From the NCBI GenBank assembly GCA_973895155.1, contig OZ316895.1, positions 12,469,929-12,533,928 on the forward strand: 64,000 bases of DNA. Direction: 5' to 3'. The notes under the pieces are model-generated. The model saw nothing but the letters and a program-made list of their open reading frames with translations, searched no databases and was not told the DNA's origin. The position numbers and the translations under genes were made by a program. This document shows, in pieces, positions 5,707-64,000 of the stretch (the stretch's first letter is position 1; each line of letters opens with the position of its first letter). The stretch comes from Marsupella aquatica (lineage: Eukaryota; Plantae; Marchantiophyta).

Positions 5707-8700
5707 CTAATCTACCCAAGTCGCACCAACCACCTTCGCGAAAAACGCAAATGCATCACTTGTTTGCTCAATCTGGGCAACAAACACAGAAAAGGGACAC
5801 CCAATCAGTTTCAATGCCTTCGGAACAGGAGAATTCCTAGCTGAAGAAAGGGAACAAGACGAGAGCAGAGTAGATAGTGTACACGACACTCACAATTTTT
5901 TTGGTCGGGCGACCTGCTCCGTGCCCAGCTTTTGTATCAATTCTAGCGAGGATATAATTCGTTTGACGACCTTTCGTGACCTTACAGAGTTCGTATTGCA
6001 ATGTCTGTAGCCAAGGCCACATATATGACGTCAGAACTCCGGAACACATGGTGGCGAGTAGAAAATCACTGAGCGAGAGAGACCAATTCAATCACCTCAC
6101 ACTTAACACTTCAGAGCTGTAACAATACATGGCTCAGCTGACAGGAGTGATTGAGATACATCACCAAAAGCCGTGGCTGGAGTGATTCTGCTTACCGCAA
6201 GTAACTTCAGTGAGTGAAGAGGAACCACACGGTCATCGTGATCGGCCGTCAAAAGCAGCATCGATGGGTACTGAACGTCTTCCTTGCCCGGAGTTTCCCA
6301 AGGACGCCTCACGTTGTGTAAAGGTGAATACCTGTAAGAAAATTTGCAGGACATGGCATAGTAAGTCCGTTAGGTGAGATCGATCGATGGACCACTGAAA
6401 GTGCAGGGGAAATAATTCTACTTTAGCTTGACAGGACGGAATCGTCAAAGAATTGAGCTTGAACTTGCCTTATCAACCATTTGAAGTCCTCAGCATTATC
6501 TGCACACCCATAATCAGATGTCCAAGCATGTCCTGCGATGCAATCATTCCGTGTGAGTCTCGCACAAGTCCAACCTCAGCTCCGGATGTGTGAAAGAAAA
6601 ATCAGGAGCGGACAATTTCTAAGGTTTGAATTCTCCCCACGGTCCGCACAACCTTTCTTATCGCAACTCTCCGAACCATTCAACAACCAACCCGGATGTG
6701 AATAATATATCCTGAAGTATGATCTTACCAATGGTGAACTTGTGGAAGCGAAGCATGTCCATGACGCCAACATGAGCTAGAGCACAACCGAAAAGGTCCG
6801 GTCTCTGCGAAAAAAATCAGAATGTGAGATAGAGGTTTGTGAGTGAGGTGTGTACTCTAGGAACGGAAATGGTGCAAGGGTTTTAGAACCCACAGATAGG
6901 CTAGCTGAACTCATGTGTACGCGAGACTAGCAGGGTAGTAAATGGGAGCCCAAAAGCAAACTCCCTGCAGACGATGGCGGATACCGGAAAAATTAGCGGT
7001 ACAATAAGAAGCCGTTAAAAGACTACCAGAGACACAGCGAACATAATAAAATTCTTTATCACGCCCAATCGGCGGGATAATTCATAGTTAACCTTCTACC
7101 AAGAACACCAGACATCTCAAAAGATGAGAACGTGGGTAGCAATCAGGAACCCAGGTTTATCATCTAATTGCTACCCACGTACTGAGACCCCACGACCATG
7201 ATGAACACGGACAGATTTGGCTGTTCTGGAAAAGTAATCGTCGGCAGGATCATGGACACAGAAATGAACTCAGTCCTGTTGCTATCAGGTGACCAGGAAA
7301 ACGTTCAGACACAAAGATTGATATGTTGGAACTTTCTGCCGAGACTTCAGTACAATCCAAGACTTCAAAAGTAAGGACCTCAAGAAATTATTCGGCACGT
7401 GCTTGGACTTACCTGATTTACACATGCTGCCACAAGTAAACCTCCGTTACTGCCTCCTTCAATACCGAGTTTCTTAGGTTGAGTGTAGCCTTCCTTGACT
7501 AAGAACTCAGCACAAGATTGGAAATCATCAAAACAATTCTGCTTGTTGGACAAAGCGCCACCCTTGTGCCAGTCTTCCCCATATTCTCCTCCTCCTCGGA
7601 TGTTCGCCATCGCAAAAACTGCACCATATTGACCCACCAACACCAACCGTGCTGGACTGAAATATGGAGTGAGGCTGATATTGAAACCCCCGTATCCATA
7701 TAGGAGAGTCGGATTCTCCCCGTTCAGTACTGTACCTCGCTTGGACACCAGGAACATTGGAATCTTGGTACCATCCTTGCTTGCAACAAAGACCTACAAT
7801 TTAAAAGCAAACTTCGAGTTAGAATAATTGTGTTTCCGGAAAGGATAACGAAAGATTATGTGCAGCATTACCAAAGAGGTGAGAGGTATGTTCGCATGAA
7901 TAGCATGAACCTAGCATGAAGAGCTCCATAGACTCTCGAGCAAAATTCTACAGCGAAAACAGGAGTGCGGTGCTACAATATGATCGAAAGCCAAGGACAG
8001 TGGGCGCACCTGATTTGTTTCGAACGCAGTGCGGTCAAAGTCCTTCACAACTGTATCTCTGAAGACGTCAGGAGCTGGGCTCTCAGATTCCAAATTGCAC
8101 CGGTATATAGTTCCCGGGGACAAGAAACTTGTGAAGCTAAAGAATACTTCTGATTGATCTCTCCTCCCAGATACATTTGACACTGTGCCAATGTCCAGAG
8201 GCAGCTGGTGGAGCAGATCTCCTGTCTGCAAATCCCGCAGCTGAAGCACATGCTTCACATCACTCAGGTAACAGACAAGTAACTGCTGCCCATTCACACA
8301 ATCCACAGATGAGAGGACATCGACATCGGATTGAGGAATCACGTCCGTCCACCGTGATGGGTTCTCAAGATCAACTCGAGTGACCTTATACTTTGGGGCG
8401 TTCTTATTCGTGTTGAAAGTGAAAACGGTATCGTCATTTGCCACATATTCATATTGGGCATCGAAATTATCCACCAATTTCTCGAAAGGAAGGAGCTGCT
8501 CGCTCCCTCTGAGTCCCTCCAACCCAGTTGGAAGAGATGTGAGGTCACAATAATAAAGGCGATTCACCGGATCACAACCCTCCTCGATGGTTAACAGAAG
8601 GTACTGCATCACAACATAACGATGTCTTGTGAGAAGCGTGAACTTTACACGTTAGCGTGACCAATGATGTTCTCACGCTTTGACTTAAACAGCCGTAGGT

Positions 8701-11418: not shown

Positions 11419-12924
11419 AGCATGTGGACGAAAAATCGACCGCACCCGTACGGTGTCTAAAGGTGGTTTGACTCTATATGAAAAACGGCAGGCAACGGCA
11501 TCCTGTAGAAGTCTACGCAGAAGCAGCACCACCGTATGGAATTCATTTGGTTCTTTCGAGGCAAAAAAAGAAGAAGCAGCACCACCGTATCTTTCTAGTG
11601 GATGACAAACAACAATATACTTGCTACAGTGCTCCTCAAAGTCTGGAAGTCAGAATGATTATCCACACTTCCGATAATAGAACGGAAAAACAATCACAAG
11701 TATGTCGTATCCACGTCAAACTCTAGTACTACTCACTTCCCCTGTCTTGCTCTGCTTTGAACAGTGTGATTGTGCTCTGTCTTGCTTTTAGCGTTGCTTT
11801 CGGACTACATGAGTGGGTGCGCAAGATTGTAATCGTACCTCAAATGCGTGCCGGCGTGCCGCTACCAGAACAATAATAATAATTACACCGAAGGCGGCAC
11901 AATGCGTACAACGCCCGCCCACCCGATGTCCGGAACGAAATGAAAAATACCGTGAAGAAGAAAAGGGAGAGGAGGTGTTGCGCGTTGAGCCTCCTCAACA
12001 CACTACACAGTACCTCACCCCACCTCACCGTAGCAGGTACCGCCGACTAAATGGAGAAGTTGAAATGATGGCCCTCTTCCTTCGATACAGACTCACAGTG
12101 CACCGACAATTCTAAGCGAGTCTGCAAACGAAGCGTGACTCAATTGGAGATTACTGGAGTCCGCTTCCTTCGATACAGGCAAATGCAATGCGAATCTGCA
12201 AGTGACACGACTCGATTAACAGACACTTCTGCAACAACGAAATCTGCACCCGGCACCCGGAGAGTTGATTCGAAATTTCGAATCACCAATGCGACAAAGA
12301 GCGAATTCAGCGGAGCACAATCAGCTAATCAGCACCGACGAGACGACGAACCAATTCGAAGCGAATTTCAGCGATACGACAAAGAGAAAAATCCAGTGCA
12401 CATCTACCGACACGCGAGAGTGACAAATTTGTTCTTCGAAGCAGAATTGGTTTCGTAAAACGTTCACTTATGCAGCGATGAACGAGCTCCGTCTCGAGCT
12501 TTTGTAGTCGGGTTCAGTCGGGTTCAGTCCGGAGCAGCCGAGGCGGGCTGCACCATAATTAATTGTTGGATGTGTCGTCGGTGGCGTCACGCCGTCCAGA
12601 ATGTCGACATGCCTCACGAGTTGCAGACCTCCATCTCGACATCGGATAATTCTGTGTCGGGCCCTCGCCCTCTTTCGACGCAGCGCCCCCCAACAATCCC
12701 GTTGTGGGGGTCGGGTTCCTAGGACCGCCGAGTCGAGGATCGTCGCCCCTCAACAACCCCTCGAAATGGCGTTTTTGTTGTTTCTATAATTCGAAAGCCA
12801 CCAGCATACCTATCTTACTAGTGTACTAATTCACGAGAGATTTTCTTGGTGGGACCCCAAAATGGAGAGATACTTGATGGACCCCCCAAAATGGAGAGAT
12901 ACTTGATGGACCCCCCAAAATCGA

Positions 12925-13090
12925 GAGAGATACTTGATAGACCCCCAAAATGCAAAGTGTTTCTTGATGGACACATGAGTGATCCAGACCCATGATAGAT
13001 CTCACATCAATGTACCCAAAAGCTCATGGGGTCTTGTGGGGTCTATCAAATAAGACATTTCAATTTAGGGGTCCATCAAGTATATCTCTC
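12925..13090. mobile_element. ~165-bp palindromic MITE (copy 1), embedded in tandem copies of its own terminus (12846-13290)
   Basis: Starts GAGAGATACTTGATAGACCCC and ends GGGGTCCATCAAGTATATCTCTC (inverted). The terminus GAGAGATACTTGATGGACCCC is repeated in tandem at about 12865-12945. A degenerate further copy lies at about 13108-13290. Confidence 0.65.
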
Positions 13091-13516
13091 CCCCAAAATG
13101 AAAAATATTACTAGTGCACTAATTCACCAGAGATTTTCTTGGTGGGACCCCAAAATGAAAAATGTTATTTGATCAGACAACTCATCGGACTCTTGAGTGA
13201 TCCAAACCATTGATTGAATCAATGTACCCAAAACTTCAGGGGTCTTATCAAGTAACACCTTTCATTTTGAGGTCTCATTAAGTAAATGCCTCACTAATTC
13301 GTTATCAAAATCTACTTTTACAAGCATGAATGCCCATAATTTGAATGACAATAGAGATGATTACAAAAATCAGCCTGCATAATCATCTTGACATACAATA
13401 CATCTCATCCTCTCCATTCACATGCATTTGGTGGGGCCCTTGAGTTAAGGTCTTGAGACACTCTGAAAACCTAGACCCAAATTGTAGCTTCTGTTTGCAA
13501 ATTTGTAGTGAGATGG

Positions 13517-13790
13517 CCTACTTTTAGAGTGAAACCTCTCAACCATAATTCAGGGGTTGTCGCTCAAATCTGGGGGTGCAAGGAATGGGGACATATCATA
13601 AGTGAGCAAATCTGGGGTGGTCACTTAACTTTGGGGATATCTACTTTTATGGCTTAAGTTTAGATTGAAGGCTCTAGACCATAATTCTTGGGTCATCATG
13701 TAACTTTTGGGCATGGAAGTGTGGGTGCAAGGAATGGGGACAAATCATAAATGAGCAATTTTGGGGTAGTCACTTAACTTTTGGGGCTGA
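13517..13790. repeat. ~150-bp direct repeat x2, with further copies of its TAGAGTGAAGCCTCTAGACCATA motif at ~15205 and ~15623
   Basis: GGGTGCAAGGAATGGGGACA(T/A)ATCATAA(G/A)TGAGCAA..TGGGGT(G/A)GTCACTTAACTTT occurs twice. The CTACTTT...TAGA(G/T)TGAA..CTCT..ACCATA motif occurs four times. Confidence 0.7.
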
Positions 13791-14317
13791 ATGAAAATAA
13801 AGGTAAAAGGATGGGAACAAATCATAATTGAGCTGTCAGTAATAAAGAACCATCTTATTCTTGCAAGGTTTTTTGTACTTACTCATATTTAGGTTCAAAA
13901 GAATGAGTAGTCAAGCTAGTCCAACAAAAGATAAACATTTTGCTCCGGAGCTTGGGTTTTTGTAGGGTAGCCCACAAGGGAGACAATATCCAAGGATTCA
14001 ACACAGACAGATCTTTTGTACCCATTTTGAGTCATTTTCAGAAAAGGAGTGTTACGACCTGTCAGGACATTTGGGCACCTTTCACTGCTGGTGGAATGTG
14101 CATAGTGGGACATTCATCAAGCAGCACCGCAATATTTGCGCACTAGTGGCCAAGCCTCCAATCCTATCATGGTCTGGGGTGTGAGACTTGTCTATGATAG
14201 TGATCACCGAACAAGATGCCGCGATTTTACAACAGATCAGAGACCAGAAGGACAAGAGAGTTCAACTAGGGCCCCAAAACAAACCAGCCAGGGGTAGTAA
14301 CCAGTACTCCCACCATA

Positions 14318-14343
14318 ACACACACACACACACACACACACAC
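14318..14343. repeat. (CA)n microsatellite
   Basis: Run of AC dinucleotides visible directly. Confidence 0.9.
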
Positions 14344-14380
14344 CACTTGGGTGAGGAGGACCCATTCTTTTATGTGGAGA

Positions 14381-15015
14381 AAATTTGTTAGATTTAGATT
14401 TCACTTCTCAAACAAATCTTTTTACTTCTAACTAAAATTTGCTAGATTTAGATTTCACTATCTCAAAAAAAGTCTTCGTACTTTTGAGTAAAATCTGCTA
14501 GATTTCACTTCTTAGATAAATATTCTTACTTTTGACTAAAATTTGCTAGATTTTCTGGCGTTCATTATAGTAGTTAGTTTTTCACTTTGCCACGTACCCA
14601 CACACATATACTTTCCACGTCCCTTAGAGCATGGAGGCGGGAATTGAACTTTCCACACCACTTGGGTGTGAAGGGGGGTACACCCTGGGCAGGCTGTATT
14701 TTTTATGAGCAAACTTTTGCTAGATTTCTATTTCACTTCTCAAAACATTTTAATTTTTTGGGAATGAAAAGGGGGAAGAGCCCCCAACTTTATTTTTACT
14801 TTTGACTAAAGTTTGCTAGGTTTCAATTTCACTTCTCAAAAAAGTATTCTTACTTTTGACTCAAATTTGCCAGATTTAGATTTCACTTCTCAAAAAACTA
14901 TTCCTACTTTATTCCAAGGAAAAAAATATTCCTACTTTTGACTCAAATTTGCTAGACTTCCATCCCACTTCTCAAAAAATATTCTTACTGACTAAAACAT
15001 TTGCTAGATTTTCTG
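14381..15015. repeat. AT-rich ~55-bp minisatellite (AAATTTGCTAGATTTAGATTTCACTTCTCAAAAAA..TATTCTTACTTTTGACT), about 8-9 degenerate units in two blocks
   Basis: TTTG(C/T)(T/C)AGAT/GCTAG followed by TTCACTTCTCAAA and TACTTTTGACT recurs through 14381-14555 and 14715-15015. Confidence 0.75.
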
Positions 15016-15983
15016 ACATCCATTACTCTAGTTAGTTTCCTACCTTGCCACATACCCCCACTAGCCAGAATCTAACCGGTTATCCAACATAGGGAGGTCT
15101 GATGGTAAAACATTGAGACATTCGCGCTGCCTACCCCCATCCCACTGCGGTCCACAATCTTACTAATAAAGCGCAAACTGTAGCCTACTTTCACAAGCTA
15201 GGGTCTAGAGTGAAGCCTCTAGACCATAACTCTATGGCCCGCTCTATGGTCATCATGTGCATGGGAAAAACTTATGACATGACTATGATGTATGGACATG
15301 TCAGGTTTATGTGATAATTTTTAAATATTTACATTCAAAATATATAGGTAGTATGGCCCCCCCACAACATATGTGCATAGAACATGGATGTGCATACAAA
15401 AAGCTTGATGTGCACATCAAGGAGAATGATATATTATATATGACTATTAAAATGTTAGGTTTTTTTATCAAATCATTAATCTTCAAAGAATATGAATAGA
15501 AAATATATTTTGATAATTCTTTTATTGTCATCTCCGCTATTCACGTTCAAAGAATGGGTAGTCGGGCCGGGGCTAGTCTTACTATATAATCGCAAACAAA
15601 AGCTACTTTTAAGGGCTACTATCTAGAGTGAAGCCTCTAGACCATACCTCAAATAAGGACAAAATGCATAATGACTCTGAATAACACAAATCTAAAAGGT
15701 GCACAAAAAATAGGTATCCAAAGATAATGGAAAAGAGTATAGATTTTTTTATTTTTTTCAATTTGTTTTTTGTTTTCAATTTTATTCTCGATTTTATTTA
15801 CATTCCAGGAATGGGTAGTCAGGCTAGTGGGTCTAGTTTCATACAATCTTTCCCTGCTACAGCAATAATGTGAAGATTTTACCTTAGACAAATCACAAAA
15901 AGGGAGACATTATTAAATGGTCCCTACAGAGGGCAACTTTTATTTGAGTATCAGCTCATCCAAGGTACACATGTTGCATTTTT

Positions 15984-18902
15984 TATTTTTTTATTTTTTA
16001 AACGGGGACACCCCGGAAACTTTATTCAACGAGAAGATAAAAGAACAGCTGCCCGGGAGAAGGGGGCAGGGAAAAATTAAGAAAACAACAATTAAGGGGG
16101 CTATTAGTGGGAGCACACCCAGAGAGGAGAAGGCACCACAAGCCAAGACGCCTAACTGGAAGGAGGCGACGAAGAGGGAGAGAGAATGCCAATGGAACCT
16201 GGAACAAAATCTAAAGCAATACCCAAGACCAACCCTAAACTGCGAACAGAACCGGACAGCGCCAAAGACCAGCCTGGTCTTTGCCTCCACCACCCTCCAC
16301 TGACCACAATATCCCACTTTGCTTGGCACCAGTGAGCAACAGGATCCATCAGACTGCACTATCTCCGGCCCAGGTGGACATCAGCAACCAAAGGAGAGCA
16401 ACAACTGCCGGCTAGCAGAGCATTGCAGCCACCAACACAACATCCACCTAATACCAGAGGGGAACATGCCAGAGGATTGGCATTCTACATGTTTCACCAA
16501 CCCAGCCAGCAGCCACCAAGCTAGATCCTTGTTGAGCCAGATCCCAAGCAGCTATGTCGTCAGTCCGAATAAGTGTGAATTCAATTTGATCCCATGGGGC
16601 CGAGCCCAAGAAGCAACTCAAACAAGATCGCTGCATCAGATCTCCGCAAACCGTCCAGCCCATATAAGATTGGATCCACCAGACCCAGGCGATATAGGTG
16701 TTGCAGCCCCCAGAGCAGAGAATTCCCTCCAAAACAAGGAACCGAAATGACTCCCCAAAATAGGTTTGGGGAAACAACCTCCCATGATAAGCATCAGATA
16801 AGGAGATACCAATGAGAGCCCAACGTCCAAGGACCAGGACAATATGAAGATATCCTCGAACCCCATTGGGAACAGAGATTAGGAGGACCACAGAGAAAGC
16901 AGGTCCCAGCTGATCTCCTCCATAGGACAGATATAAAATAGACCCAAGATGATCCCAGCATCGGAAAGAGAAGCATTCAAATTACGTGCAATACCATAGC
17001 TCGAATAAACTCGATGAAGCCCACACTCCCCAACATCTCCAACAATCGTAGTCTGGCCCAGTGGAGAGCAGAGCAAGCTAAGACCCAGAACAAACCCAAG
17101 GAGGACTGTCGGGCTGGAGGCAACAGACGGCGGTCCAAGAATACTGAAGATTGAATATCCGGAATGGATAAAATAGTGACTAGATATCTATCTAAAGAAA
17201 ACCCATAGATGCGGACCCCCAAGAAGTCATATAGAGCCCGAAGATATAATTCCCTGATACTATGATACGATTTTATTCTATGCGATGGCTTTTGGCCAAA
17301 GTTCAAAAAAGAACCTATATTTGGAGATCAAGAAAGACCGAATGAATAGGAGGGCCGAGTCTCAACGGGGAAATAATAGGGGGACCAGAACTGAGTCGGA
17401 CAAGACCAGAGCACGGCCGACGGACATACCCCGGCCCAAGATATACAATATTGCGCCAGCATCTCCACAATAAGATTAGGATATAAAAGGCAGTCCTTCA
17501 ACAACGGAGAAGAGCCGGCCGAAGGAATGGGAAGAGGGAGATGGAAGACGGAAAGGGAGTAGGATACGATCTTGACAAATGGGGGGGAAACATACGTTTG
17601 GACGGAGAGTGGACTTGGAGACAGGATGGACTGTCTTGGGAAAGCTAGGAGGAACCAGACGGATGCAAGGGCCTGCGCAGGAGACGGCTCCCCAACAGAC
17701 TTGAGATGTATTTTTCTGCATAATATAACCTTTTTTTCTTGGCCTCAGAGTCCGAACATAGAGCTACAGAATGGAGGTGCAACACCACCGAGGAAGCAAC
17801 AGCAAATGGGGAAAAAATTACAGATTGGCTCCGAAACACCTTAGTGTTACGATTTTTCCACAGAAGCCAGAAAGTATCATACACAACAAAGAGGCGAGCG
17901 GAAAGCCTGGGAGAACGGCTGAGAGACAAGTCTAGAATACTTAAGAAGGAGTTTCCCCCTGGGAGGAGAGAAATGGCTGGCACCCTCTCATAGAACCATG
18001 CTGTGCGATTCCAAGCCATGGTTGCCTGGGGACAAGAGAAGAAAATATGGCAGCAGTCCTCCGTGCAATTCCTGCAGAATGGGCACATCCCATCTCCGTG
18101 TCCACATTGGTTAGCCCTCTTCCTGGTGAATAGCCCGGCTGCTAGAACACGCCACAAGAATATCTTCCCGCGATGAGACAGGTCGGAGCGCCAGATCCTC
18201 CTCCATCTGCGCTGCCAAACACCAACAGAATCCGCAACTCCCCATCTTGTGTTCAAAGCACCAAAATCACCAATGGATTTGTCAATCATTTTATATGCCT
18301 GAACACTATTGAGAAAGCGAGGATGGCGGTGATGTTGAAGTCCCTGCCAGTGCCATTGTGGTGCAACAAAGGAGTGGGAAAGGGATGGCGGCGGTCCACA
18401 TTGGAGGAGCAAAATTATGTTTGATAATAATGCTCTGGTTTGTTCCCCCAGCCCACGAACACGAGCCAACCTGCACGAGAAATCAATCCAAACTCCAGAA
18501 CGCCAGTCCCACAGGTCATAGACGTGAGAAAGGTTAATTCGGGAACAAGTGCTGAGCATACTCGGAAGACAAGAGACAGGGAAATTAAAGGAGCGGAGAG
18601 ATTGGAGAATCAAATCAGCCATAGACCACCTGGCGGGAATAGCAGTAGAGTTAGGATACCAGCGTAGATGTCCTCTGATCTGAATCCAAGCCCTCCATAA
18701 ACCAGCCATGTAGTACATACCTCTAAAACTTGTTGGGGTGGAGAATAAGAATTTATCCATGGTGGAATAACCTGCTTGGTGGAGACTCACTGAGTTGTTC
18801 CAAGCAGCCAAACGGAGGTTAGCCAAAAAAAGAATGGCCCATTCCGATGATGGGTCCGTGAGCAATCGGGATGCCCAGTGGGCTAGAAGCGCTGTAGCCT
18901 GT
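15984..18902 (-). mobile_element. 5'-truncated L1-clade LINE with A-rich tail and target-site duplication
   Basis: TSD GTTGCATTTTT at 15973-15983 and 18913-18923, extendable to 21 bp with 2 mismatches (15963-15983 vs 18903-18923). A-rich tail (T-runs on the + strand, 15984-15999) is preceded on the - strand by AATAAA. Contains the ORF2 C-terminus. Confidence 0.88.
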
Positions 18903-18912
18903 AGGTACAGAC
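17645..18912 (-). CDS. C-terminal part of LINE ORF2 (post-RT region plus zf-RVT zinc-binding domain), uninterrupted for about 420 codons
   Basis: WQRRWRRIWRSDLSHRGKIFLWRVLAAGLFT...CPFCRNCTEDCCHIFFSCPQATMAW...WLLWKNRNTKVF is the canonical plant L1 zf-RVT signature. No EN or RT core is present because of the 5' truncation. The first few residues in the ORF track come from the flank/TSD. Confidence 0.88.
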
Positions 18913-18971
18913 GTTGCATTTTTGGAATGAGACTCAAAGTAACAAAACTTTAGATCTAATACAAAACACAC

Positions 18972-19115
18972 GAGATATATACTTGATGGACCCATAAATT
19001 GAAATGTCTTATTTGATAGACCCCATGAGCTTTTGGTACATTGATTTGAGGTCTATCAACGGCATGGATCACTCATGTAACACTTTGCATTTTGAGGGTC
19101 CATCAAGTATCTCTC
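18972..19115. mobile_element. Palindromic MITE (copy 2), inverted relative to the 12925-13090 copy
   Basis: GAGATATATACTTGATGGACCC...AAATGTCTTATTTGATAGACCCCATGAGCTTTTGGTACATTGAT...GGATCACTCATG...GGGTCCATCAAGTATCTCTC is the reverse complement of 12925-13090 with indels. Confidence 0.7.
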
Positions 19116-19519
19116 TAGATCATGTTTACATCATCATGACACTCAAAATTGGTTAACGAATGTTGCTTTTGTTTTGTTTGTGGTTTCTATTCAAAATATC
19201 ATTTTCCTGTGTTTTTCAAATATTATTATGATCTACTATTCTAATCAGGAATCTTGCAAAAAGTAGCCCAACCTTGGCCAAGATCTATATACAAACTTGA
19301 ATGAAAGGAACAGACTCCTTATAAATTAGTCATATGCTTTCGGGAGTTTTTGGTCCATGGATTGACTTATTGGGGAGGGGGGAGCTTTCAGGGCTACAGG
19401 TCCTTGGAAAGTCATTTATGACTCTTTGTACCCACTGCCTGCCCAATGCTGCCCGGATCGGATGTTTATTATTCAAATAAATGCCAAAAATGGATCCTTA
19501 TTCTGTAGCAGCAGCAGCA

Positions 19520-53990: not shown

Positions 53991-54812
53991 ATAAAATTAT
54001 TGTTGGGGTAGAATAATAATCTGAGCCAGCCGGGGGATAGGATAAAAGAAAATGGAAATGTTTACATGTGCTCCAATGATAGTGCTTTTCAGGCAACTTT
54101 TTTAGTGTCATTTTTCTATACATTCATACATGTTACTAGTGTGATCCTATCAGGGTTCTATTGGACTGTAATCTTAGATGTTAAGGGAAGATTCTACACC
54201 ATGAACAGAAAGTGAGCATATTCTATTGAAAGAGGACCAAGTACAACAAAAAAATGTGGCAAAATTGGAGGACAAATTCTTGGGATTCTCACTATATGGG
54301 GACCTCCTCATCTAGTACTCGGACCCCCTAAAATGTAAGAAATTTTAAAAATTATTTAACCCCTATATTCAAAAAATTGGATTAAAAAAACCCTAATGTT
54401 CTTGTAAGTCTCAAAATTGAATTTAAAAGACTCTATTGTTCTTCTGCAAAAAAATTAAGTTTTCTCTATCACTATATTCATTAAAACTGAAATTATAAAG
54501 GATATAGGGAAATTTGGCGATTTAAAAACATAGTTTTAGGCATGAAAATTGTAAATTTGGAAGATGAAAAATGAAAATTCAAGCATCATTAAATGTAAAT
54601 TTGGGGACAAAAAAATGAAATTTTGGGAAAGTAAAATATTAAATTGGATGATATTAAAAAACATTTGGGTGATAAAAGTGTTCATTTGGTTGGAAAAATA
54701 GATAGAATCTAGTAATAACATATAAGCTTGGATAGCATCTATATTCAAAATATTTAGCTTGAGTAAGATATCTAACTAAGCACCAATACAATGGAATGAC
54801 TATAGTGTCTAG

Positions 54813-55056
54813 CTCGGGGGGGTCACTTCCATGGAAGTGGCATATCATGTGCGACGAAGTATAGGGCCATTTAAATGGTTTTGGCGGAAGACTTATTAAG
54901 TCTTCTATGGAAATATAGGGTTGTTTAATTGCAAAATGCATACGTGTCATCACATGATTGGTGCCGTACAACTTTATAGAAAGTGACTTAGGGGGTCATA
55001 AATGACCCAAACCGTCGCACGTGATGTATGACCCTTCATATAGTGACCCCCCCGAG
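54813..55056. mobile_element. 244-bp MITE with 15-bp perfect TIR and 8-bp TSD (hAT- or Mutator-type)
   Basis: TIR CTCGGGGGGGTCACT (54813-54827) / AGTGACCCCCCCGAG (55042-55056). TSD GTGTCTAG at 54805-54812 and 55057-55064. The inverted match continues imperfectly inward (ATCATGTGCGACG / CGTCGCACGTGAT). Confidence 0.9.
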
Positions 55057-55312
55057 GTGTCTAGACAAAGTTAACTAGGATGATATCCAACCTACTAGAA
55101 GGAATGAAATGGCATCATTTTCTAGAATTAAAATATACTAAGACAAATAAAATAATAATTATAAGAAAGTCCATTCAATAGCTTTGAGAGATCATAGAGT
55201 ATTAATTTGATTGTCTTGTTCTCTCACTTTAGACGAACGCATGGAAATCAACTCGACCCTCTTAATCACAAGTCATTTGAGTGGAGACTTGTAACCTACG
55301 AGTTCTATCAAT

Positions 55313-58300
55313 CTACTCATCAATTATACCTTCCATGTAAATTTTGAGAGTTTTCAAAACATTCTTAGGAATTGTCAAACCTCTATCCATAATATTTTGT
55401 TCTTTAGCATCTGACTTAAACCCATACATTGCAGAATTTGCAAACTGCCAACTTTGAGTAACATTGTCAAACCCAGGATCCAGCTCCCAAGTCTTAGTGG
55501 TTTGAAAGCAACGTTCATATCGAACATCATCCTTTGCATCATGCTTACCATGTTTAGGCCTCCACCATTGTACTTGGAACATAGGAGCATTCCTAAGAGG
55601 AATGCTCTCAACAGACGTTGAAGAAGACCCTTCAATATGTTGCAAATCTGTTGAGGGAACCTCATGGTTTGGATCCACACCACCCAAAGCTCGAACCAAC
55701 CAGAAATGCCCTTTGCCATTTTCCTGTTCCCATTCATCCTCTGGACGTAAAAATACAAAGTGACCTTCTTGAATATCTTGTAGAGGAATCCAACGTGCAG
55801 GTTCTCGCTCTTGTCGTGCACCAACAAAAGGTGCAGCTTGATCTTCCATCTCTTCCATGTACTCATTTTGAAGGTCCATCATCTCTGGATTTTGAGAAGG
55901 TTCACTTGATGGCTGAGATGACCCCAAAATCATCTTGTAACCTGTGCCATGGTTAGTCTTTGGCCAAAAATCAGTTGTCAATGGCAAATGTCTTTCCCCC
56001 TCCCCTTCTATTGTAAGTTCCTCGGACAGTGCTTGCACAAGATTCTCCCAATATTTGACCAGAGGAAATCTCTCTTTATATGCTGCAGAGGTCTCATCCT
56101 TACAACTTTTCTTCAAGAAATCAATATAGCGATTAAGGAATGGGATGATTTCTCCAGCCTTCTTTTGTACATCCCCAGATATAGGTTTTGCAAATGGTTG
56201 GCCTTCTGGTAAAATGAGCGCATTTGTGATGGGATCAGTTCTCCAAATGGACCTCCCCATTGCCGGAAGCCAAGGTTGCTTGACATGTGCTTTATATTGA
56301 TACACTGACACATTATCCCTCATGGAGAAAAGAAATGCCACTGGTTTTGAGTGACCTTCTATCTCTTTCACCTGGAAAGTTTTCAAATACTCCTTGTAAG
56401 ATGCAACCTCTTGAATCAATCGTGGTACAGGATGAATGCTTTCACACTCCCAAACCTTAGCCATCAACCCCAAGAGGGTAGCAACCTCTTTGTATCTGAC
56501 CTGTTTGGATACTTGAGAAAATAATGCATCCACGTCTTCATGGGTGTGGCCAACCATGAGGAATGACATTTGCACAGTTTCAAACACCCCCTGCTAACAA
56601 GCTCAGTGCAAAATGCCATCACATATTGATTTTTGTTATCTTTCCCTGAATTGTCCATCTGCAATGTTAGGTGCCTTGGTAAGGGCTTGAAAGAGCCCCT
56701 AGTAGTCTCAGGATCATCCTTAGAACCAATATCCACTGTGCTTGACTTTTTAGTCTCCTGACCATCTTCAATGCCTTGAAATCGAACAATTGAAACATTT
56801 TTGGGTTCCAAGTAACCGGCCAGAAATGCTTCAAAGTCTAGAAAGGACTGAAATATTGGCCTAGTTGCATTCCAATTCAATCCCTCAAGAAGGTCTCCAG
56901 TTTTGTCTCCTGTGTAATCTTCCAAATCTCGGAGGCATTTGGCCAAAGATGTCACGGTAAAGTCTGCATCTCCAGGCCAATTAAAGTCCAGTCAAATTGA
57001 AATGTGCATACACTCCAGGATCTCTTCCATGGGTTAACATCCCAGTAAGAGCAATAGGCAAAGGCTAACCACTACCAGAGAGGGATTTTGGAGTGGGGAC
57101 CAACCTGGGGATCCAAGTCTTGGCTTGATCCATCTTATCGTGAATAATGCAAAGATAGTTTTGAGGATCCTTCTTTGCAAGAACCCTATGAGCATAGTAA
57201 ACATATCTTCTTGACATTTGTTCACGAAGATGTCACGCTCTTTTCTCTTCAATCTCTGCACGCTCTTTTTTTCTCTTCTCCCGCATCAATTGATCTTTGA
57301 ACTCAGTGCAAAATGTGCACTTGGCAAATGCACTTCCCTTGTGAAAGTCAAAATTATCAAATGAGTTTTTCCAGATGTTGTACATAGTAACTTCAGTAAC
57401 CTTAGCAAACCCATCTAATTCCATCTTGGTAAACACCTCTTGGAAAATCTCCTTCTTAGTAAAACAAGATGGGAGCCGATATTCAATAGTGTCAGTGCCG
57501 TTGGACCCACCATAGGGAAGATGTGGCATTGGTTTCCCATTTTGGATTAAAATGGACTCCAACAAGGCGCGAGCGTGCAAAGTGCTTGATCGTGTCTTCC
57601 GTTGTCCCTGATTTCCATGGAAACCAATTGTGCAACCAACTTCGTATTGATTTTTGTAGTCATAGTACTTTGTTGTACTGAACCCATGCATTTTAATAAA
57701 TGCATCTTTACAAACCACACGTCCCTTTAGAACAAAAAATCCCTTTCTCTTGACTTGCTCCTCTCTACACCCAAAGAGACTAAAGATGTGACTTGTTTTG
57801 TTGTCACTTGACATTCCATGGTATTCCCTCCTCATTGCCTCTAAGTCCTCCCTGGGCATGTTCAAGCAACACTTCAGCTTGCAACAACCTTCTCTTTGGA
57901 TGGAATCAATGGACTCCTCGTTAATTTTCAAAAGTGCCCTCGACTCCAAATGCCTTTTCTTCCTCTCCTCAAGATCAACTTTTGTCCTCCTAATGAAATT
58001 GTATGGTCTTTTTGTAGGGTTACCATCACCATCTGAATCCGGATCGCCCTTAGTTTGACCCGACTCCATCCACTTCTCTGAAACTTCCTCAAGGATATCC
58101 CCAAGAAACCTCTGAGACGAAATCAATAGAAGGGATTTGATTTCCCACCTCACCAAGCCAGGGGTACCAACACGGATATTTGGAAATAATCCGGGTTCAT
58201 TGATATTCACAACAGCAACACCAACATGATCTGCACCAAGAAGTTCATCGTCAACGGCACCTGTTTCAAATGGGACCATGATAACACCTGTTGCAACCTT

Positions 58301-59032
58301 TTGACAACGAGAAGCGTCATACAAATCAACCTCCTCCGCCATCCAGTTGGAACGTAGTGTAAAATCTTTTAATGGAAGATCATTGAAAATATTTGAACTA
58401 CCAAACACGCCAAAATCTCGTAGAGTGCCCTTTCTAGAAACATGCGCAACATCCCAGATAACCCAGGTATGCAAGGCCTCTTCTATTGTATCAGCTCCAA
58501 GGTGCGAGTATGGCAATTTTTGATTTCCCTTAACAATATCAGATATTCTTATACTGATGCGACCAACCCCGAGTGTTTCAGTATGACAAATATCCATCGG
58601 ATTTGTCTTGAAAACGACTCCATTTGCAACCAACTGATCAAAAATGAACATCTGAACTTCATCTCCTTCCTTGAACACGTCCTCTTCAACCCTTGCATCA
58701 ATTTTGGATTTATCATTTCCAGCATCTCCAGCCAAAGAGAAATCATCGACATTGATTCTTCGGCGCTGAGTTGATGACCTCAAGTATGCCAATGCACAAT
58801 CCCAAATCACGTAGGAGTCAATTGCCTTAGCCAATGTAGGAAATTTGGGCGAAGGAAATGGAAGTTGACGCGATCCATCAAAACACTTTTCGATCAATAC
58901 CCCAATTCGATTGTCCCCTAGACAAATGTTCTGTATAGTGTCCTGGGGGTCAACCTTTTGAACTATCCCTATTGCCGTTTCAAATCCATCGATCACCAAT
59001 GACACTTCATCCCCTCGTGTAAAATTGATCAT
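55313..59032 (-). pseudogene. DDE-type transposase (Sola/DUF7869-like core) with three N-terminal TNP1/En/Spm(DUF8039)-like repeats and Cys clusters, ~1240 aa reconstructed
   Basis: Continuous reading MINFTRGDEV...KRA*HLREQMSRRYVYYAHR...LCIIHDKMDQAKTWIP...SG*PLPIALTGMLTHG...(4-bp insertion near 56980)WPGDADFTVTSL...LTLQMDNSGKDNKNQYVMAFC...(1-bp deletion near 56588)VFETVQMSFLMVGHTHEDVDALFS. Two in-frame stops (TGA 57235-57233, TAG near 57066) and two frameshifts. Confidence 0.8.
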
Positions 59033-59156
59033 GATAGCGGACTATCTGTATTCAAATAAAGTTAGAAATTGTTAAGTTCCCCATGTTACAATCATGTTTC
59101 AAAATCTGGACTCTCCTCCAAAAAATATTGTAAAATCACTCAAAACCCTAAATACA

Positions 59157-59490
59157 TTCAAGTCGGGTCGGAATTATTTTGACCCTCCTCCAACATTATG
59201 TCTTGAAATGATTGAATTGACTAAAAATTTACAAGTCAGGTCAGAATTATTTCGACCCTCCTCCAACAATATGTCTTGAAATGATTGAATTGACTAAACA
59301 TTTACAAGTTGGGTCGGAATTATTTCGACCCTCCTCCAACAATATGTCTTAAAATGATTGAATTGACTAAACATTTACAAGTCGGGTCGGAATTATTTCG
59401 ACCCTCCTCCAACAATATGTCTTAAAATGATTTAATTGACTAAACATTGATAAGTTGGGTCGGAATTATTTTGACCCTACTCCAACTATT
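59157..59490. repeat. 73-bp tandem repeat, about 4.5 units, each with the palindrome GGGTCGGAA-TTA-TTTCGACCC
   Basis: GAATTATTT at 59171, 59244, 59317, 59390 and 59463 (period 73). An inverted partial copy GAAATAATTCCGACCC lies near 59590-59605. It sits in a probable 5'UTR intron of the transposase (minus-strand donor about 59804, acceptor about 59046). Confidence 0.92.
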
Positions 59491-60616
59491 AAGTTGAAAT
59501 TATGTCAAAACTATTTGTGAAACTATCTTGCTTATGCTTTTATATACCAGTTTAAAATGCTAGTTAAGATGACATAGTCAGGTCGGCATGAAATAATTCC
59601 GACCCACTTCTAGAAACTATGTTAGTAATCACATAAAGGGGTACAGTAAGTTCTACACATGCTAGACTGTGGATAAAGGTCTAGAATGAGTAAAATATAT
59701 GATCTAGAACCTAATGTGTAAATCTTAATCTAGGTTTGGCTTAAAGGTATTGAATTAGATGTAGTTGAGCTAGTACTTCTAAGATAAATAAATAAAATCA
59801 CTAACCTGCTCCGCAATATATCTCTGTTCACCCTTGTACAAGCTAAATGGGTACCTTGGATGCCAGCATTGTAACTCTTAGCACCACAGTGCTCACCAGT
59901 GCCCTTACTAAACCTTGCATTCAACCATGCGGACCTAAACAAGGCACTCGGACAGAGGAGAGTCAGTGATCGTACCAATCACTGTCTAAATGACAATGAA
60001 CCAAAAAATGGATTGTGGGAGGTCTATACTCAGTTTGAGAGGCAAAAAGCCCACACATTACCCAGCACACGAGTGGACACCAACAGATCGGGCACGGGTG
60101 GATGAGGCACGCACCCAGCACACAAGTAGACATCGGATAGGGTGTCAGCCAATCACTCACGAGTGATAGGTGAGTTGCGAGCACCCATTGCTGACAGCTT
60201 GGAAGTTTAAAATTGGTAGGTGAGTCGCGAGTGGTCGTGAGTGGTCACACCATCGGTGACTCACGATCACATGCACCGAGGAGGGTCTCCATCATTGGCG
60301 CGCATTGATGCCTCCGTACCCTCTCAGATCCTTGCCTCCTCGGACTCCTCGCTCACAGGGGGTATAGGAAGGCAGGCCTTGCGCTTGAGGCCTCATTTCC
60401 TTGCCTCCCTCTTGCCTCCTCTCTCGTCTCCTCACTCCTTGCCTCCCTCTTGCCTCGCTCTAGGGCTTTTGTTTTTGCCTCGCTCTTGGGATTTGTTTTC
60501 CGCCTCGCTCTAAGGCTTTTATTTCCGCCTTGCTCCCTTCCCTTTTGGGTCGCTCCCTCGATCATTGTTTGCCTGTTAGTGCCCTCTTGCAGCCTGTGGC
60601 ATTCTCCATTGCTGCC

Positions 60617-63600
60617 ATGTGTCATCTTAAATCTCACTCGCCCCTTACAATGTCTACTTCCTCTAGTTCTGAAGCTTCCACCACCTCCGCCAGTTCTCAA
60701 GAGTCATTGAACTTCAATTATAACTCTCTGTATGAATATGACCCTGAAGACCCGGATGTCCAAAAATTGGTTAACAATGCGTTGGAGGCGTCAAAGAAAG
60801 CCCAGTTAACTTTTCCACATAAGGCACCACCTGCTTCAACTTCTTGCCTTGCCCTAAGGGCGAGGCAACTTTACTTTAATTTGGATTTCAAACTTCTTAT
60901 TAGGAAAATTTCTATATTCCTTTGCAGTCACCTCGCCCCAAGGTCGAGGCGACGTCTACTTCATTCTAGATTTCTTGTTGCTCCGAAGGCGTATTGGACC
61001 TTGTATCTTACATTAATAAAGGATCTTTAGCTATATTCTATTTTTTGCCTCGCTCTTGGGGCGAGGCGATGTCGTCTGCATTCCTCAAATGTAGTCTGCA
61101 TTCCCAGAAGTTGCCTCGCCCCGATGTTATCTGCATTCCTAAATGTTGTCTGCATTCCCAGAGATGTCCTCTACATTCCTAAATGTTGTCTGCTTTCCCA
61201 GAAGTTGCCTCGCCCTTGGGGCGAGGTGATGTCCTCTGCATTCCTAAATATTGTTTGCTTTCTAGAAGTTGCCTCGCCCTTGGGGCGAGGCGATGTTGTC
61301 TGCATTCCTAAATGTTGTTTGCTTTCCTAGAAGTTGCCTCGCCCTTGGGGCGAGGCGATGTCGTCTGCATTCTTAAATAATGTTTGATTGCTTGGATGAG
61401 GTGGCAGGGCTAATTGCACTAGAAGCAAAGAAGATTTTGCAATCTTCTATTTGTCGCCTCGCCCCAAGGGCGAGGCACCTTGAAAGTTTTCCACATGTCA
61501 ATGTTAAAAATATGATGCTGACCATTTTGTTTTCAATGTTTCTTACCAGGAAAAAATCTTGAGAAGCCGGAGTTAAATATTATGGACGAGGATATCAAGG
61601 ACTTTGTTTTCCCTGACCAAGATCCTCCAGGATTTAGATGGGCACTAGAAGTTGGGGTGTCGGCGGAAGGCAGTCTCTTGATTTGTTTCAAGGGCCTCAC
61701 AAGTCAATTGAATGACCGCAAGACAATTGTTACTCTAGGTCCAGTCGTCCTTCTGAACACGGACAACAACCGCAATGCAACGATTATTGTTGAGTCCAAT
61801 GAGAAATCTCAGTGGATGAGACTTCTAGTGCCAATAAAACTCTACTCGACTTTACTGAATGTTGAGTGGATGGCTCGATTGGAGATAAAGCGTAGCTGAT
61901 ATGGGATTCTTCCCAGATGGAGTAACAATTGATCAGATGTTTGAGAAGACACGTTCTCAAATAAGTGGAGTTGACCTAGTGTTTGGATTTCTCTACGTAA
62001 AGAAGCACATGCATGACAATGCGGACAGTGTGGACCCTCCGTCTACTTGGATAGTTCAAAGGATGATTGATAAGGCACATTTTTCATACGAGCAAGCAAT
62101 CGACAAGAGTTTCATTTTTTGTCCAGAGTTTCAAGAGGCCGCGTGCCGGACGTGGATTTCAGAGATGAAGAAAAAAGAAGCAAAGCATAAGGCAAAGGAG
62201 AGAAAGAAGACAGTGGAAAGAAGTGCGTAATCAAAGACAGAGAAGAAACGAAAGCTTCAAGAGCCGGTTGTTCAACAAGAGAAACAATCTGGGAGTTCAC
62301 GCCGTAAGAAGATGGCTAAAAAAAATGAAGATGATGAGGGCCCCCAAAAAAAGCAGACAAAGAAGGCAAAGGTTGCGAAATCAAAACCAATGTCAGGGTC
62401 GACTTCAAACTTTGTCTTGCATCCAGAGGATGATATGTGTCCGACAGAAGGACCCAAAGAAGATGATGTGCTCAAAGGCCAAGAGGTTTTGCGTAATATT
62501 GAGCAGTATTATACTTTTGGCATCCGCGAAGTTTTTGATATTCCTATAAAAAGTATTAATCCGCCATCGGCCGTTTTTGTATATCGAATGTTCAATCTTT
62601 CGCATGCAATGGAGATATCAAAGTCTATGATGAAAAACCCTGGACAGGAACCACAAGTTGCTGATTTGATTCCGTATCGCGAGAGCACAAAACAGTTGCT
62701 TCATTATGACAACACACCTCAGGATAGGAAAGAGTTTTTGATTGGTGTGAAGAAGCATGAGATCCAATTCCTTGCCATCAGTGGCCAGCATTCTGCAAGA
62801 GCTGCCCAATGGATCCAAGGGTGGGCCGAGACTGACGCCAAGCTGACAGATCTTGCCAACAAACTAAAGTATAGGAAAGCAAGGATCCTATCTGACCTCA
62901 CTCCGAAGACAATTTTGGTTGAGCATTCAAGTTTATCGAATGCTGTCAATGATACTATGCAATTTAAGTCTTGTTTTTTAGAGACTATTGTTCATGCACG
63001 AAGGCAGTTTGAGGAGTGCGGGGAACCGCCGCGTCCAGGGATTGGGACCAATCAAAATACAGACAGGAAAAACTATCAGGTACATGTTGGAGCGACGCAA
63101 ACTATTCTTGATCCGCTTTGTTTAAAGATTGTCAATGGTAGAGGTTTGCCTCGCCCCAAGGGCGAGGCTGCCTTTTCTTGTTTTCCTTGGTTAGAAGATT
63201 AAAGCAAATGTTTGCTTCGCCCTCAGGGTGAGGCAACCTAGACTAGTCTCTCTAAGAATAATTCCCTAGTTCCGTTTCAGTCAATTGCGGTTAGATGTAG
63301 AGGTTCGCCACGCCCTTGGGGCGAGGCGGCTTAGCCTGTTTCAAACATAGGTATAAATTTTCTAACATATGCATTGTACCCTGAAACTAATGTCAAGTCC
63401 ATTGGATATGTAGGATTGGTTTGCCCTGGCAAAGGTTACAATGGGGAAGTCAAGCCTAAAGAGCATTTATTGGTTACTTTTTGCCGAAGATGAGCTCTTT
63501 GAATTATGGCGGAACGTGTGTGCAAAATGGTTGAGTGGGAAGCTCCAAGACAGGGCTGGTGGGTATGGAGGGCCAAGACCCCCAAAATTGATCACTCCCG

Positions 63601-64000
63601 GTACCTTTCGATGCTTTGAAGGAGAGATTAGTAGCAAACAGATAATTGAGATCTTGAAGGACGTTGAAGAGGAGCGTGTCTTGCTGAAGAAGGATATCAC
63701 CAACAAATCAGAGCTTGTCGCAATGGGAGACTCGGCCCTTACAATCAAGATAATGTCCAAATTGAGAACAGTCATTATTGGCTATTTTGTGGAAAAGTAT
63801 CGTGAGAAGTTTCCTGTTGGCACATCTTGGGAGTCTCTGGTGATATTGTTGCCTTCCTTGAAATCTGAGCTTGAGATGACAAAATTGAGGAGAGCAGCGG
63901 GTGAGGTTTACCTCAACAATTCATTGAAGAAGAATGTGGTCAAGGAGAGTTTCCCACAAAGTCTGATGGTCAGACTAGATGGGTTGTATTGTAAAGAATT
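60617..64000 (+). pseudogene. Spliced transposon accessory gene with ParB/Sulfiredoxin-like domain, 3' end beyond the window
   Basis: Exon about 60617/60650-60823 (MSTSSSS..YEYDPEDPDVQKL). Exon about 61550-63079 with one frameshift (about 61895) and one in-frame TAA (62228-62230), including VFDIPIKSINPP..VYRMFNLSHAMEISKSMMKNPG...FLAISGQHSARAA...RKARILSDL...SNAVN...SCFLETIVHARRQF. Donor CAG|GTACAT at 63080, acceptor TAG|GAT at 63413, then an open frame DWFALAKVTMG...GLYCKE to 64000. Confidence 0.65.
61040..61380. repeat. ~65-bp tandem repeat containing the GCCTCGCCC-TTG-GGGCGAGGC palindrome, in an intron of the ParB-like gene
   Basis: Units AGAAGTTGCCTCGCCCTTGGGGCGAGGCGATGTCGTCTGCATTCCTAAATGTTGTTTGCTTTCC with palindromes at 61047, 61207, 61271 and 61336, plus deleted units between them. 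Confidence 0.9.

What the first reader, a model, noticed from the sequence alone, without database searches (positions are those of the whole stretch)
54313..64000. Divergent two-gene DNA transposon pairing a Sola/DUF7869-like transposase with a ParB/Srx-like protein
Seen: two long, similarly decayed genes head-to-head around a ~1.6-kb spacer. One has DDE-like motifs (HDKMDQ, QMDNSGKDNKN, GHTHEDVD). The other has an IPIKSI...YR...H...SM...G...ISGQHSARA...N...SCFLE pattern. Established: GxxR/GxHR within this pattern is the hallmark of ParB/Srx nucleotide-binding domains, which in bacteria are CTP-dependent DNA clamps or partners of DNA-modification enzymes. Inference: this is a plant transposon family carrying a ParB-fold accessory protein, an architecture I do not recognise from the standard plant superfamilies (CACTA uses TnpA/TnpD, Harbinger uses a Myb-like partner). 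The ParB-like gene runs off the window and may carry further domains such as a DNA methyltransferase-like module.
Basis: partly seen in the sequence, partly recalled or inferred. Interest (0 to 1): 0.85.

Follow-up and report, generated by a model that had tools for sequence, protein, structure and literature searches.

The report
Plant transposon with ParB-like helper gene
This is a young but broken copy of a repeated jumping-gene family, likely from a liverwort-type plant, that carries a second gene predicted to fold like the bacterial DNA clamp ParB, with mirror-image DNA words in its introns that this protein would likely grip; the same two-gene design was reported in a brown alga in 2025.

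Summary
The element is real. Read depth steps from about 16 to about 500 at 54277-54279 and stays level across both genes, about 30 copies at 99% identity. Gene A is a DUF7869 (Sola-type) transposase. Gene B is a spliced gene on the other strand; its 62483-63079 segment has the ParB/Srx fold. Its motif is GQHS, not GxxR: 0 of 74 motif-bearing relatives have the arginine. Full-length Riccia relatives continue into a beta-class DNA methyltransferase fold lacking the PPY motif; here the window ends just before that point. Ten palindromes lie in gene B's introns and nowhere else. The design is already published: Ectocarpus Sola1-1_Ec32 carries a ParB-plus-methyltransferase gene opposite its transposase (PMC12477816). 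A complete 10.9-kb relative with the same layout turned up independently (L001). New here: land plants, degenerate active sites, intronic palindromes, and a lead to Starship DUF3723. Best reading: a self-binding, probably non-catalytic helper protein. Binding and function are untested.

The parts
54275..54278 (.). AATT, candidate left copy of a 4-bp target-site duplication (fits the AWWT bias of Sola1); unconfirmed
   Evidence: directly left of the depth step; right copy lies outside the window
54279..64000 (.). Left 9.7 kb of the transposon; left end known to about 2 bp; right end beyond the window
   Evidence: depth 15.8 to 54267, 237 in 54268-54278, 1328 in 54279-54289 in run X1, same step in 4 of 4 runs; 421-517 in five 99%-alike contigs over both genes
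54365..54452 (.). Very highly repeated subterminal stretch, probably shared with short non-autonomous relatives
   Evidence: summed depth up to 134,000 in X1; interpretation is inference
54812..55056 (.). Nested MITE-like insertion (about 250 bp; boundaries approximate), ends CTCGGGGGGGTCAC / GTGACCCCCCCGAG, 8-bp duplication GTGTCTAG
   Evidence: contigs of 3 runs skip 252 bases here with 8 letters fitting both sides; sequence
55313..59032 (-). Gene A, DUF7869/Sola-type transposase pseudogene. N-terminal repeated modules (two clearly alike, a third possible), Cys-rich middle, acidic motifs HDKMDQ, QMDNSGKDNKN, GHTHEDVD. Broken by a stop at 57235, a frameshift near 56979 and a frameshift near 56595
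   Evidence: module repeat E 2e-14, weak Transposase_23 E 0.03; other copies lack the 57235 and 56979 lesions
59046..59805 (-). Probable 5' intron of gene A (GT..AG) holding a 73-bp tandem array
   Evidence: sequence; no RNA data, so inferred
59159..59486 (.). 73-bp unit x4.5, each with a GGGTCG-N9-CGACCC palindrome; a sixth, inverted site at 59585
60452..60535 (+). 25-bp unit x3.4 with GCCTCGC half-sites upstream of gene B
60650..60818 (+). Gene B exon 1; its splice donor (60819) is damaged in this copy only
   Evidence: sequence; other copies read GT here, depth 445.3 of 445.3 in X1; the phase matches exon 2
60819..61549 (+). Gene B intron 1 with 7 palindromes GCCTCGCCC-N3-GGGCGAGGC (60846, 60930, 61047, 61207, 61271, 61336, 61456)
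61550..63079 (+). Gene B exon 2: conserved N-terminal domain of unknown fold, Lys-rich linker, ParB/Srx-fold domain (62483-63079, motif ISGQHS). Frameshift near 61887 and stop at 62228
63080..63413 (+). Gene B intron 2 (GT..AG, phase 0) with 3 palindromes (63148, 63214, 63307)
   Evidence: a Calypogeia protein model reads straight across this junction (P0025)
63414..64000 (+). Gene B exon 3, helical region that in relatives lies between the ParB and methyltransferase folds; open at the window's end
   Evidence: 43% to P0025, E 6e-43; colinear with the Riccia profile, 13.5 bits against at most 1.2 for 200 shuffles

Best explanation
This is a dead copy of a recently spread two-gene DNA transposon family, likely of the Sola1 kind, whose second gene is predicted to encode a ParB-fold protein that would bind the element's own palindromes. 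Shown: one repeated unit with both genes; a DUF7869 transposase; a ParB/Srx fold; ten 21-bp palindromes confined to gene B's introns; a methyltransferase fold at the end of Riccia relatives. Inferred: the transposase cuts and pastes with a 4-bp duplication; gene B descends from a phage- or prophage-type ParB-plus-methyltransferase fusion; it dimerises on the palindromes through the helical region. Because the ParB arginine is replaced throughout the family, and the methyltransferase PPY motif is missing in the relatives where it can be seen, it more likely works as a DNA-binding scaffold than as a CTP-driven sliding clamp or an active methylase. The likely effect is to keep the element's promoters open against host silencing, or to help assemble the transposition complex, much as VANC does for VANDAL elements.
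For: One unit: depth step at 54277-54279 in 4 of 4 runs; five 99%-alike contigs over gene A, the spacer and gene B at 27-33 times flank depth; a second, diverged set of contigs at depth 286-349 also touches both genes. Fold: AF2 pLDDT 79.9; the 27 best listed Foldseek rows, to E 0.51, are ParB, Noc, PadC, KorB, sulfiredoxin, SbnI or Atu1540, best E 9.3e-4; VIA-align top row KorB Z 8.0, rmsd 5.8, 116 aligned; Riccia P0098 against 7bnr Z 9.0, rmsd 2.0, 93 aligned. Methyltransferase fold in relatives: Foldseek rows 1-10 all beta-class; Z 8.1, rmsd 4.3, 172 aligned; 10 of 10 Atlas structure rows N6_N4_Mtase or MT-A70, 4 of them ParB_N fusions. Palindromes: 10 of 10 in introns, 0.01 expected. Recurrence: L001, found with the transposase alone, has the same divergent layout, palindrome arrays on both arms, AACCA/TGGTT ends and an ATAA duplication. 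Precedents: Sola1-1_Ec32, Plavaka PAG3 with inverted-repeat arrays, VANC binding motifs in introns.
Against: No binding or expression data. The right end, TIR and duplication are outside the window. No single listed contig bridges both genes, and the tool warns that contig depth is no copy number. The methyltransferase part of this gene is not in the window; the relatives that have it form a separate clade (support 0.985) from the window's clade, and their Pfam hits are all below the cut-off (2 of 30, 4 of 6). That part of the model has pLDDT about 45-65. The fold scores are modest (TM about 0.35; Z near 8). The L001 partner is only weakly like gene B (hhalign probability 13%, P 0.002; i-Evalue 0.03). 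The palindromes could be bound by the transposase or by a host factor, and they are not near the left end.
Confidence: 0.55

Rival explanations
1. Gene B is an active enzyme: it binds the palindromes and writes 4mC or 6mA on its own element, or uses a nucleotide with a rewired pocket, as proposed for Sola1-1_Ec32.
For: The fold and a partial SAM-binding motif (DLFSGG) are kept in Riccia relatives. GQHS and the upstream YR are invariant in the 13 closest sequences, so the pocket is under constraint. The Ectocarpus paper proposes binding and epigenetic modification of the element. A liverwort has real 4mC enzymes.
Against: Motif IV reads ADL(T/I) rather than (D/N/S)PP(Y/F) in the 6 Riccia rows that cover it with alignable sequence; P0070 and P0077 show no PPY motif either. 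0 of 74 motifs have the arginine.
Confidence: 0.2
2. Gene B is passive cargo or a captured host gene, and the palindromes are transposase sites or by-products of intron tandem duplication.
For: Several palindromes sit in a 65-bp tandem array. None lies near the left end. No functional data.
Against: The same pairing recurs in a brown alga and in L001. The family is highly diversified, with many paralogues in one Riccia genome. Palindromes occur in two separate introns and as half-sites upstream.
Confidence: 0.15
3. The two genes belong to two different repeats that happen to lie side by side.
For: No listed contig spans both genes, and no right end was seen.
Against: Level depth across both genes and the spacer (421-517), no return to flank depth between them, and a second subfamily with both; complete two-gene elements elsewhere.
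Confidence: 0.05

Closest known systems
Sola1-1_Ec32 of Ectocarpus (PMC12477816; passages, part of the reference list and supplement rows read; figures not seen)
   Same: Sola-type transposase with a second gene on the opposite strand encoding a ParB-like domain plus an N4C/N6A methyltransferase domain; large element; 4-bp duplication; its transposase's best match is given as Sola1-1_PPa (I read this as the moss Physcomitrella element).
   Different: Land-plant host; about 30 young copies against 2 intact; left end begins CTTGG, not AACCG; intronic palindrome arrays and degenerate motifs are not mentioned in the passages read; the methyltransferase part of this copy is out of view; no sequence comparison was possible.
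Plavaka (EnSpm) accessory gene PAG3 of Bostrychia (bioRxiv 10.1101/2025.02.11.637652; passages read; supplements closed)
   Same: ParB-like accessory protein with tandem inverted-repeat arrays beside its gene, proposed to bind its own element.
   Different: EnSpm transposase; ParB fused to a 2OG oxygenase; the methylase is a separate gene (PAG2).
VANC anti-silencing proteins of Arabidopsis VANDAL elements (PMC5735166; passages read)
   Same: [quoted passage not shown] A functional analogy only.
   Different: Mutator-type transposase; no homology shown; VANC motifs run in one orientation, these are palindromes; VANC function is proven, this is not.
Bacterial ParB/parS and phage ParB_N + N6_N4_Mtase fusions (PMC10547168 and PMC4738411, passages read; Atlas)
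   Same: ParB/Srx fold, palindromic candidate sites, ParB-then-methyltransferase order.
   Different: GQHS for GxxR; long helical insert; extra N-terminal domain; introns; no ParA.
DUF3723 (PF12520), conserved Starship cargo gene (10.1101/2021.12.13.472469; passages read)
   Same: Nearest named clusters by language-model features to the liverwort domain (0.95, 182-183 of 256 features shared; 11 of 30 hits); also an accessory gene of giant eukaryotic elements.
   Different: No alignment or E-value supports it; no Pfam DUF3723 hit; tyrosine-recombinase elements of fungi. A lead only.

Membership tests
Sola1 DNA transposons | Transposase homologous to Sola1 references | tested here: inconclusive
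   DUF7869 above cut-off. No Sola1 reference could be compared (Bao 2009 not held). Indirect link: L001 has a homologous transposase and ends like Sola1-1_Ec32.
Sola1 DNA transposons | 4-bp target-site duplication, AWWT bias | tested here: inconclusive
   AATT sits directly left of the depth step; the right copy is outside the window.
Sola1 DNA transposons | Terminal inverted repeats | not testable with these tools
   Right end beyond 64000; no genome held; no second copy of the left end in the window.
Sola1 DNA transposons | Dispersed multi-copy family with a sharp end | tested here: met
Sola2 | Catalytic motifs as in Sola2_DFa-2 and Sola2_PPa-1 (DFKEN, DG/NA.HFK, HGKS..D) | tested here: not met
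   By-eye comparison with two sequences seen in a supplement of PMC3627910; ours are HDKMDQ, QMDNSGKDNKN, GHTHEDVD.
Sola1-1_Ec32-type two-gene elements | Second gene on the strand opposite the transposase | tested here: met
Sola1-1_Ec32-type two-gene elements | ParB-like domain in the second gene | tested here: met
Sola1-1_Ec32-type two-gene elements | N4C/N6A methyltransferase domain in the same protein | tested here: inconclusive
   Present in Riccia relatives; outside the window for this gene; those relatives are a different clade.
ParB CTPase clamps | ParB/Srx N-terminal fold | tested here: met
ParB CTPase clamps | GxxR nucleotide-binding motif (recalled; not found in the paper checked) | tested here: not met
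   74 of 101 stored proteins matched the motif pattern: 66 QHS, 3 QHL, 3 QHT, 2 AHS, none with Arg. The register against GERR is by recall, not from a printed structural alignment.
ParB CTPase clamps | Helix-turn-helix domain reading a palindromic site | tested here: inconclusive
   The P0098 model aligns to ParB out to residue 415 but at rmsd about 10-11; palindromes present; binding untested.
Active beta-class N4C/N6A DNA methyltransferases | Motif IV (D/N/S)PP(Y/F) (consensus recalled; TSPPY cited) | tested here: not met
   Tested on Riccia relatives only: ADL(T/I) at this place.
CACTA/EnSpm | TnpD-type transposase and CACTA terminus | tested here: not met
   Core is DUF7869. CACTA occurs at 54290, 11 bp inside the depth step. 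One N-terminal module has only a weak Transposase_23 hit, E 0.03.

The most novel reading that the evidence does not exclude
Large eukaryotic transposons share one borrowed module: a phage-derived ParB-fold protein that has lost its CTPase arginine and loads on parS-like palindromes written into the element's own introns and arms, shielding it from host silencing. It would be one family across Sola1 elements of land plants, algae and animals, red-algal Plavaka PAG3 and the unexplained Starship gene DUF3723.
Probability: 0.2. Interest if true: 0.8.

Novelty: new member of a known kind. Interest (0 to 1): 0.45.

Why it matters
ParB-bearing transposon accessory genes were described only in 2025, in algae, and their function is a hypothesis. 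A young family in a land plant, with relatives in sequenced liverworts and a lycophyte, gives a protein and an exact 21-bp candidate site that can be tested in Marchantia or Physcomitrium. It also shows that both catalytic motifs can be degenerate, which argues against the published idea of self-methylation for this branch. If DUF3723 is the same domain, the commonest unexplained Starship gene gains a testable function.

Tried and rejected
No whole genome is held, so the right end, TIR, duplication and the rest of gene B were not seen. No RNA holder was listed; this says nothing about expression. Pfam finds no family for the ParB-like segment (one of 13 members had DndB at E 0.052). PDB sequence searches gave nothing useful (0; two chance hits to a repetitive pilin construct). 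A word-based search with exon 3 found 0 of 3686 candidates. Scans for gene B relatives in metagenome, viral and prokaryote contigs confirmed none (0 of 38, 77, 44 and 84 candidate stretches). The transposase scan gave no viral locus and 2 loci of 114 candidates in genome contigs; L002 is a weak non-core match, gave no profile hit and was not followed. Three L001 exons that look like methyltransferase motifs by eye gave no relevant Pfam hit, so that domain is not claimed for L001. My first palindrome scan used a wrong spacer and found 0 (corrected). The first tree run failed at display; the FastTree rerun used 71 of 108 proteins, those with at least 140 aligned residues. Bao 2009 and Yuan and Wessler 2011 were not held. 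Iyer 2011, cited for algal precedents, was not read. No complex was predicted: protein-DNA binding cannot be scored and a ParB dimer would pass by likeness to solved structures. Rejected: CACTA, Sola2, an artefact of chance motifs, an intact GxxR motif.
Full report
Observation. The window holds two long reading regions head to head. Gene A runs on the minus strand from a probable ATG near 59032 to a stop at 55313. Its motifs HDKMDQ, QMDNSGKDNKN and GHTHEDVD lie in three frames. Two pieces match Pfam DUF7869 above the cut-off (E 8e-12, 1.4e-22); the other 7 of 9 pieces scanned matched nothing. The N-terminus has a repeated module (E 2e-14) with a weak Transposase_23 hit (E 0.03). Gene B runs on the plus strand: exon 1 60650-60818, exon 2 61550-63079, exon 3 from 63414 past the window's end. 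Intron 2 is GT..AG and a Calypogeia protein model reads across it. Intron 1's donor is damaged in this copy but reads GT in the other copies, and the phases fit. Splicing is inferred; no RNA run was listed.

One repeated unit. No genome is held, so I laid public contigs on the window. In run X1 the flank has depth 15.8. Depth rises to 237 in 54268-54278 and 1328 in 54279-54289, with the same step in 4 of 4 runs; this places the left end at about 54277-54279, right after AATT. Five long contigs over gene A, the spacer and gene B have depths 421-517, 27-33 times the flank, and differ from the window at 33 of 3807 bases. A more diverged set at depth 286-349 also touches both genes. The tool warns that depth is no copy number, so 'about 30 copies' is rough, and no listed contig spans both genes. 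The stop at 57235, the donor change at 60819 and the frameshift at 61887 are absent from all X1 contigs covering them; the 4-base difference at 56979 is shown by depth 898 of 1372. So this is a young, dead copy of a family that is intact at those places. The frameshift near 56595 and the stop at 62228 were not among the rows shown.

Gene B's fold. An AlphaFold model of 62483-63079 (13 sequences, pLDDT 79.9) matches ParB, Noc, PadC, KorB, sulfiredoxin and SbnI in Foldseek, best E 9.3e-4, TM about 0.35. The independent wide search ranks KorB first (Z 8.0, rmsd 5.8, 116 aligned) and its top eight rows are of this fold. The scores are modest but consistent. The hallmark motif is not there: of 101 stored proteins, near-duplicates included, 74 matched my pattern and read QHS (66), QHL (3), QHT (3) or AHS (2), never Arg. 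The pattern only admitted G[QA]H, and the GxxR consensus and its register are recalled; the ParB paper I checked did not print it.

Relatives. Searches gave 11, 81 and 7 proteins. Of 28 looked up, 3 are from Calypogeia fissa, 9 from Riccia sorocarpa and 1 from Diphasiastrum complanatum; the rest carry no organism. All 7 are Riccia. The closest named relative is Calypogeia (54%); unnamed ones reach 77%. The host is therefore probably a bryophyte, which is inference. Long Riccia proteins have sub-threshold N6_N4_Mtase hits (2 of 30; 4 of 6). A model of P0098 (pLDDT above 85 for most of the ParB and helical parts, 45-65 for the last domain) matches ParB at 107-252 (Z 9.0, rmsd 2.0, 93 aligned) and beta-class methyltransferases at 505-763 (best Z 8.1, rmsd 4.3, 172 aligned; Foldseek rows 1-10 all of this class). 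The Atlas's own model of P0100 agrees, and 4 of its 10 rows are ParB_N + methyltransferase fusions, mostly phage; phage ParB-terminase loci are a known source of such enzymes (PMC4738411, passages). Motif IV in these relatives is ADL(T/I), without PPY; motif I survives in part as DLFSGG. Exon 3 is colinear with the helical region before that domain, so the window appears to end just short of it. The methyltransferase-bearing proteins form a clade apart from the window's, so the domain is likely but not shown for this gene.

Palindromes. Ten copies of GCCTCGCCC-N3-GGGCGAGGC with up to 2 mismatches occur in 64 kb, 7 in intron 1 and 3 in intron 2 of gene B; shuffles of the element give 0.01. Half-sites repeat upstream of exon 1, and a different palindrome fills a 73-bp array in gene A's probable intron.

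An independent relative. A scan with the transposase alone returned L001, filed in a bacterial MAG but evidently eukaryotic: split reading frames and a neighbouring Helitron. Its transposase is homologous (DUF7869 E 1.6e-34). A divergent gene carries LPVSCL...R...LGGNNSRTA in register with gene B, though weakly. It has 32 TTGAAATTTCAA palindromes on both arms, ends AACCA/TGGTT with 31 of 38 terminal bases matching, an ATAA duplication, and a length of 10,907 bp.

What is known. Earlier scan notes pointed to PMC12477816, which had also been listed. It describes Sola1-1_Ec32, 21.5 kb, with a gene on the opposite strand encoding a ParB-like domain and an N4C/N6A methyltransferase, and proposes self-binding and self-modification (passages). 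Its supplement gives AACCG-CGGTT ends, a 4-bp duplication ending in A and best match Sola1-1_PPa (rows); L001's ends resemble these, which ties this transposase type to Sola1 indirectly. Red-algal Plavaka elements carry a ParB-like PAG3 beside inverted-repeat arrays (passages; supplements closed and may bear on sequence similarity). AWWT is a Sola1 hallmark (passages), though also reported for Sola2, and Physcomitrella Sola1 is known. Sola2 motifs seen in a supplement differ from ours. VANC proteins bind motifs arrayed in introns of their own element (passages). Searches for this design in land plants found nothing, nor any paper with both DUF3723 and ParB; the library lacks most subscription papers and Repbase. 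The Atlas places the liverwort domain nearest DUF3723 among named clusters (0.95), a conserved Starship gene; this is a lead without an alignment.

Mechanism and verdict. Shown: a repeated two-gene unit, the folds, the degenerate motifs, the intronic palindromes. Inferred: cut-and-paste movement, phage origin of gene B, dimer binding to the palindromes, and an anti-silencing or scaffolding role. I put 0.55 on a non-catalytic self-binding helper, 0.2 on an active enzyme, 0.15 on passive cargo, 0.05 on two unrelated repeats. That the element is real and holds both genes is about 0.93. It is a new member of a kind described in 2025, extended to land plants and made testable. Interest 0.45.

Noticed in passing
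window 54812-55056: Nested MITE-like insertion with G/C-run inverted ends and an 8-bp duplication, absent from many other copies of the element.
   Followed up: partly
window 54365-54452: Subterminal stretch with summed depth thousands of times the flank, suggesting a very abundant short relative.
   Followed up: no
window 12855-19120: Another element with long patchy inverted repeats (arms about 12855-13245 and 18964-19120), 29-bp and 54-bp tandem arrays, and a 434-aa zf-RVT frame at 17645-18949 that may be a LINE fragment inside it.
   Followed up: partly
window 7911-8651 (-): Exon of a prolyl oligopeptidase gene (Peptidase_S9_N, E 3e-44), probably a host gene.
   Followed up: no
window 58157-59032 (-): The transposase begins with repeated modules weakly like the CACTA Transposase_23 domain: possible domain sharing between superfamilies.
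   Followed up: partly
L001 2663-13569: Complete 10.9-kb element with DUF7869 transposase, divergent ParB-like gene, 32 palindromes, TIRs and ATAA duplication, beside a Helitron with an OTU domain, on a eukaryote-like contig filed in a bacterial genome record.
   Followed up: yes
P0004 residues 255-473 (relative of window 62483-63079): Nearest named Atlas clusters are fungal DUF3723, a Starship cargo gene, and the nearest overall is an unnamed basidiomycete-rich family.
   Followed up: partly
window 61550-62200 (+): Gene B has a conserved N-terminal domain of about 200 residues (motifs WALE.G, MGFFP, GF.YV) with no Pfam match; not folded.
   Followed up: no
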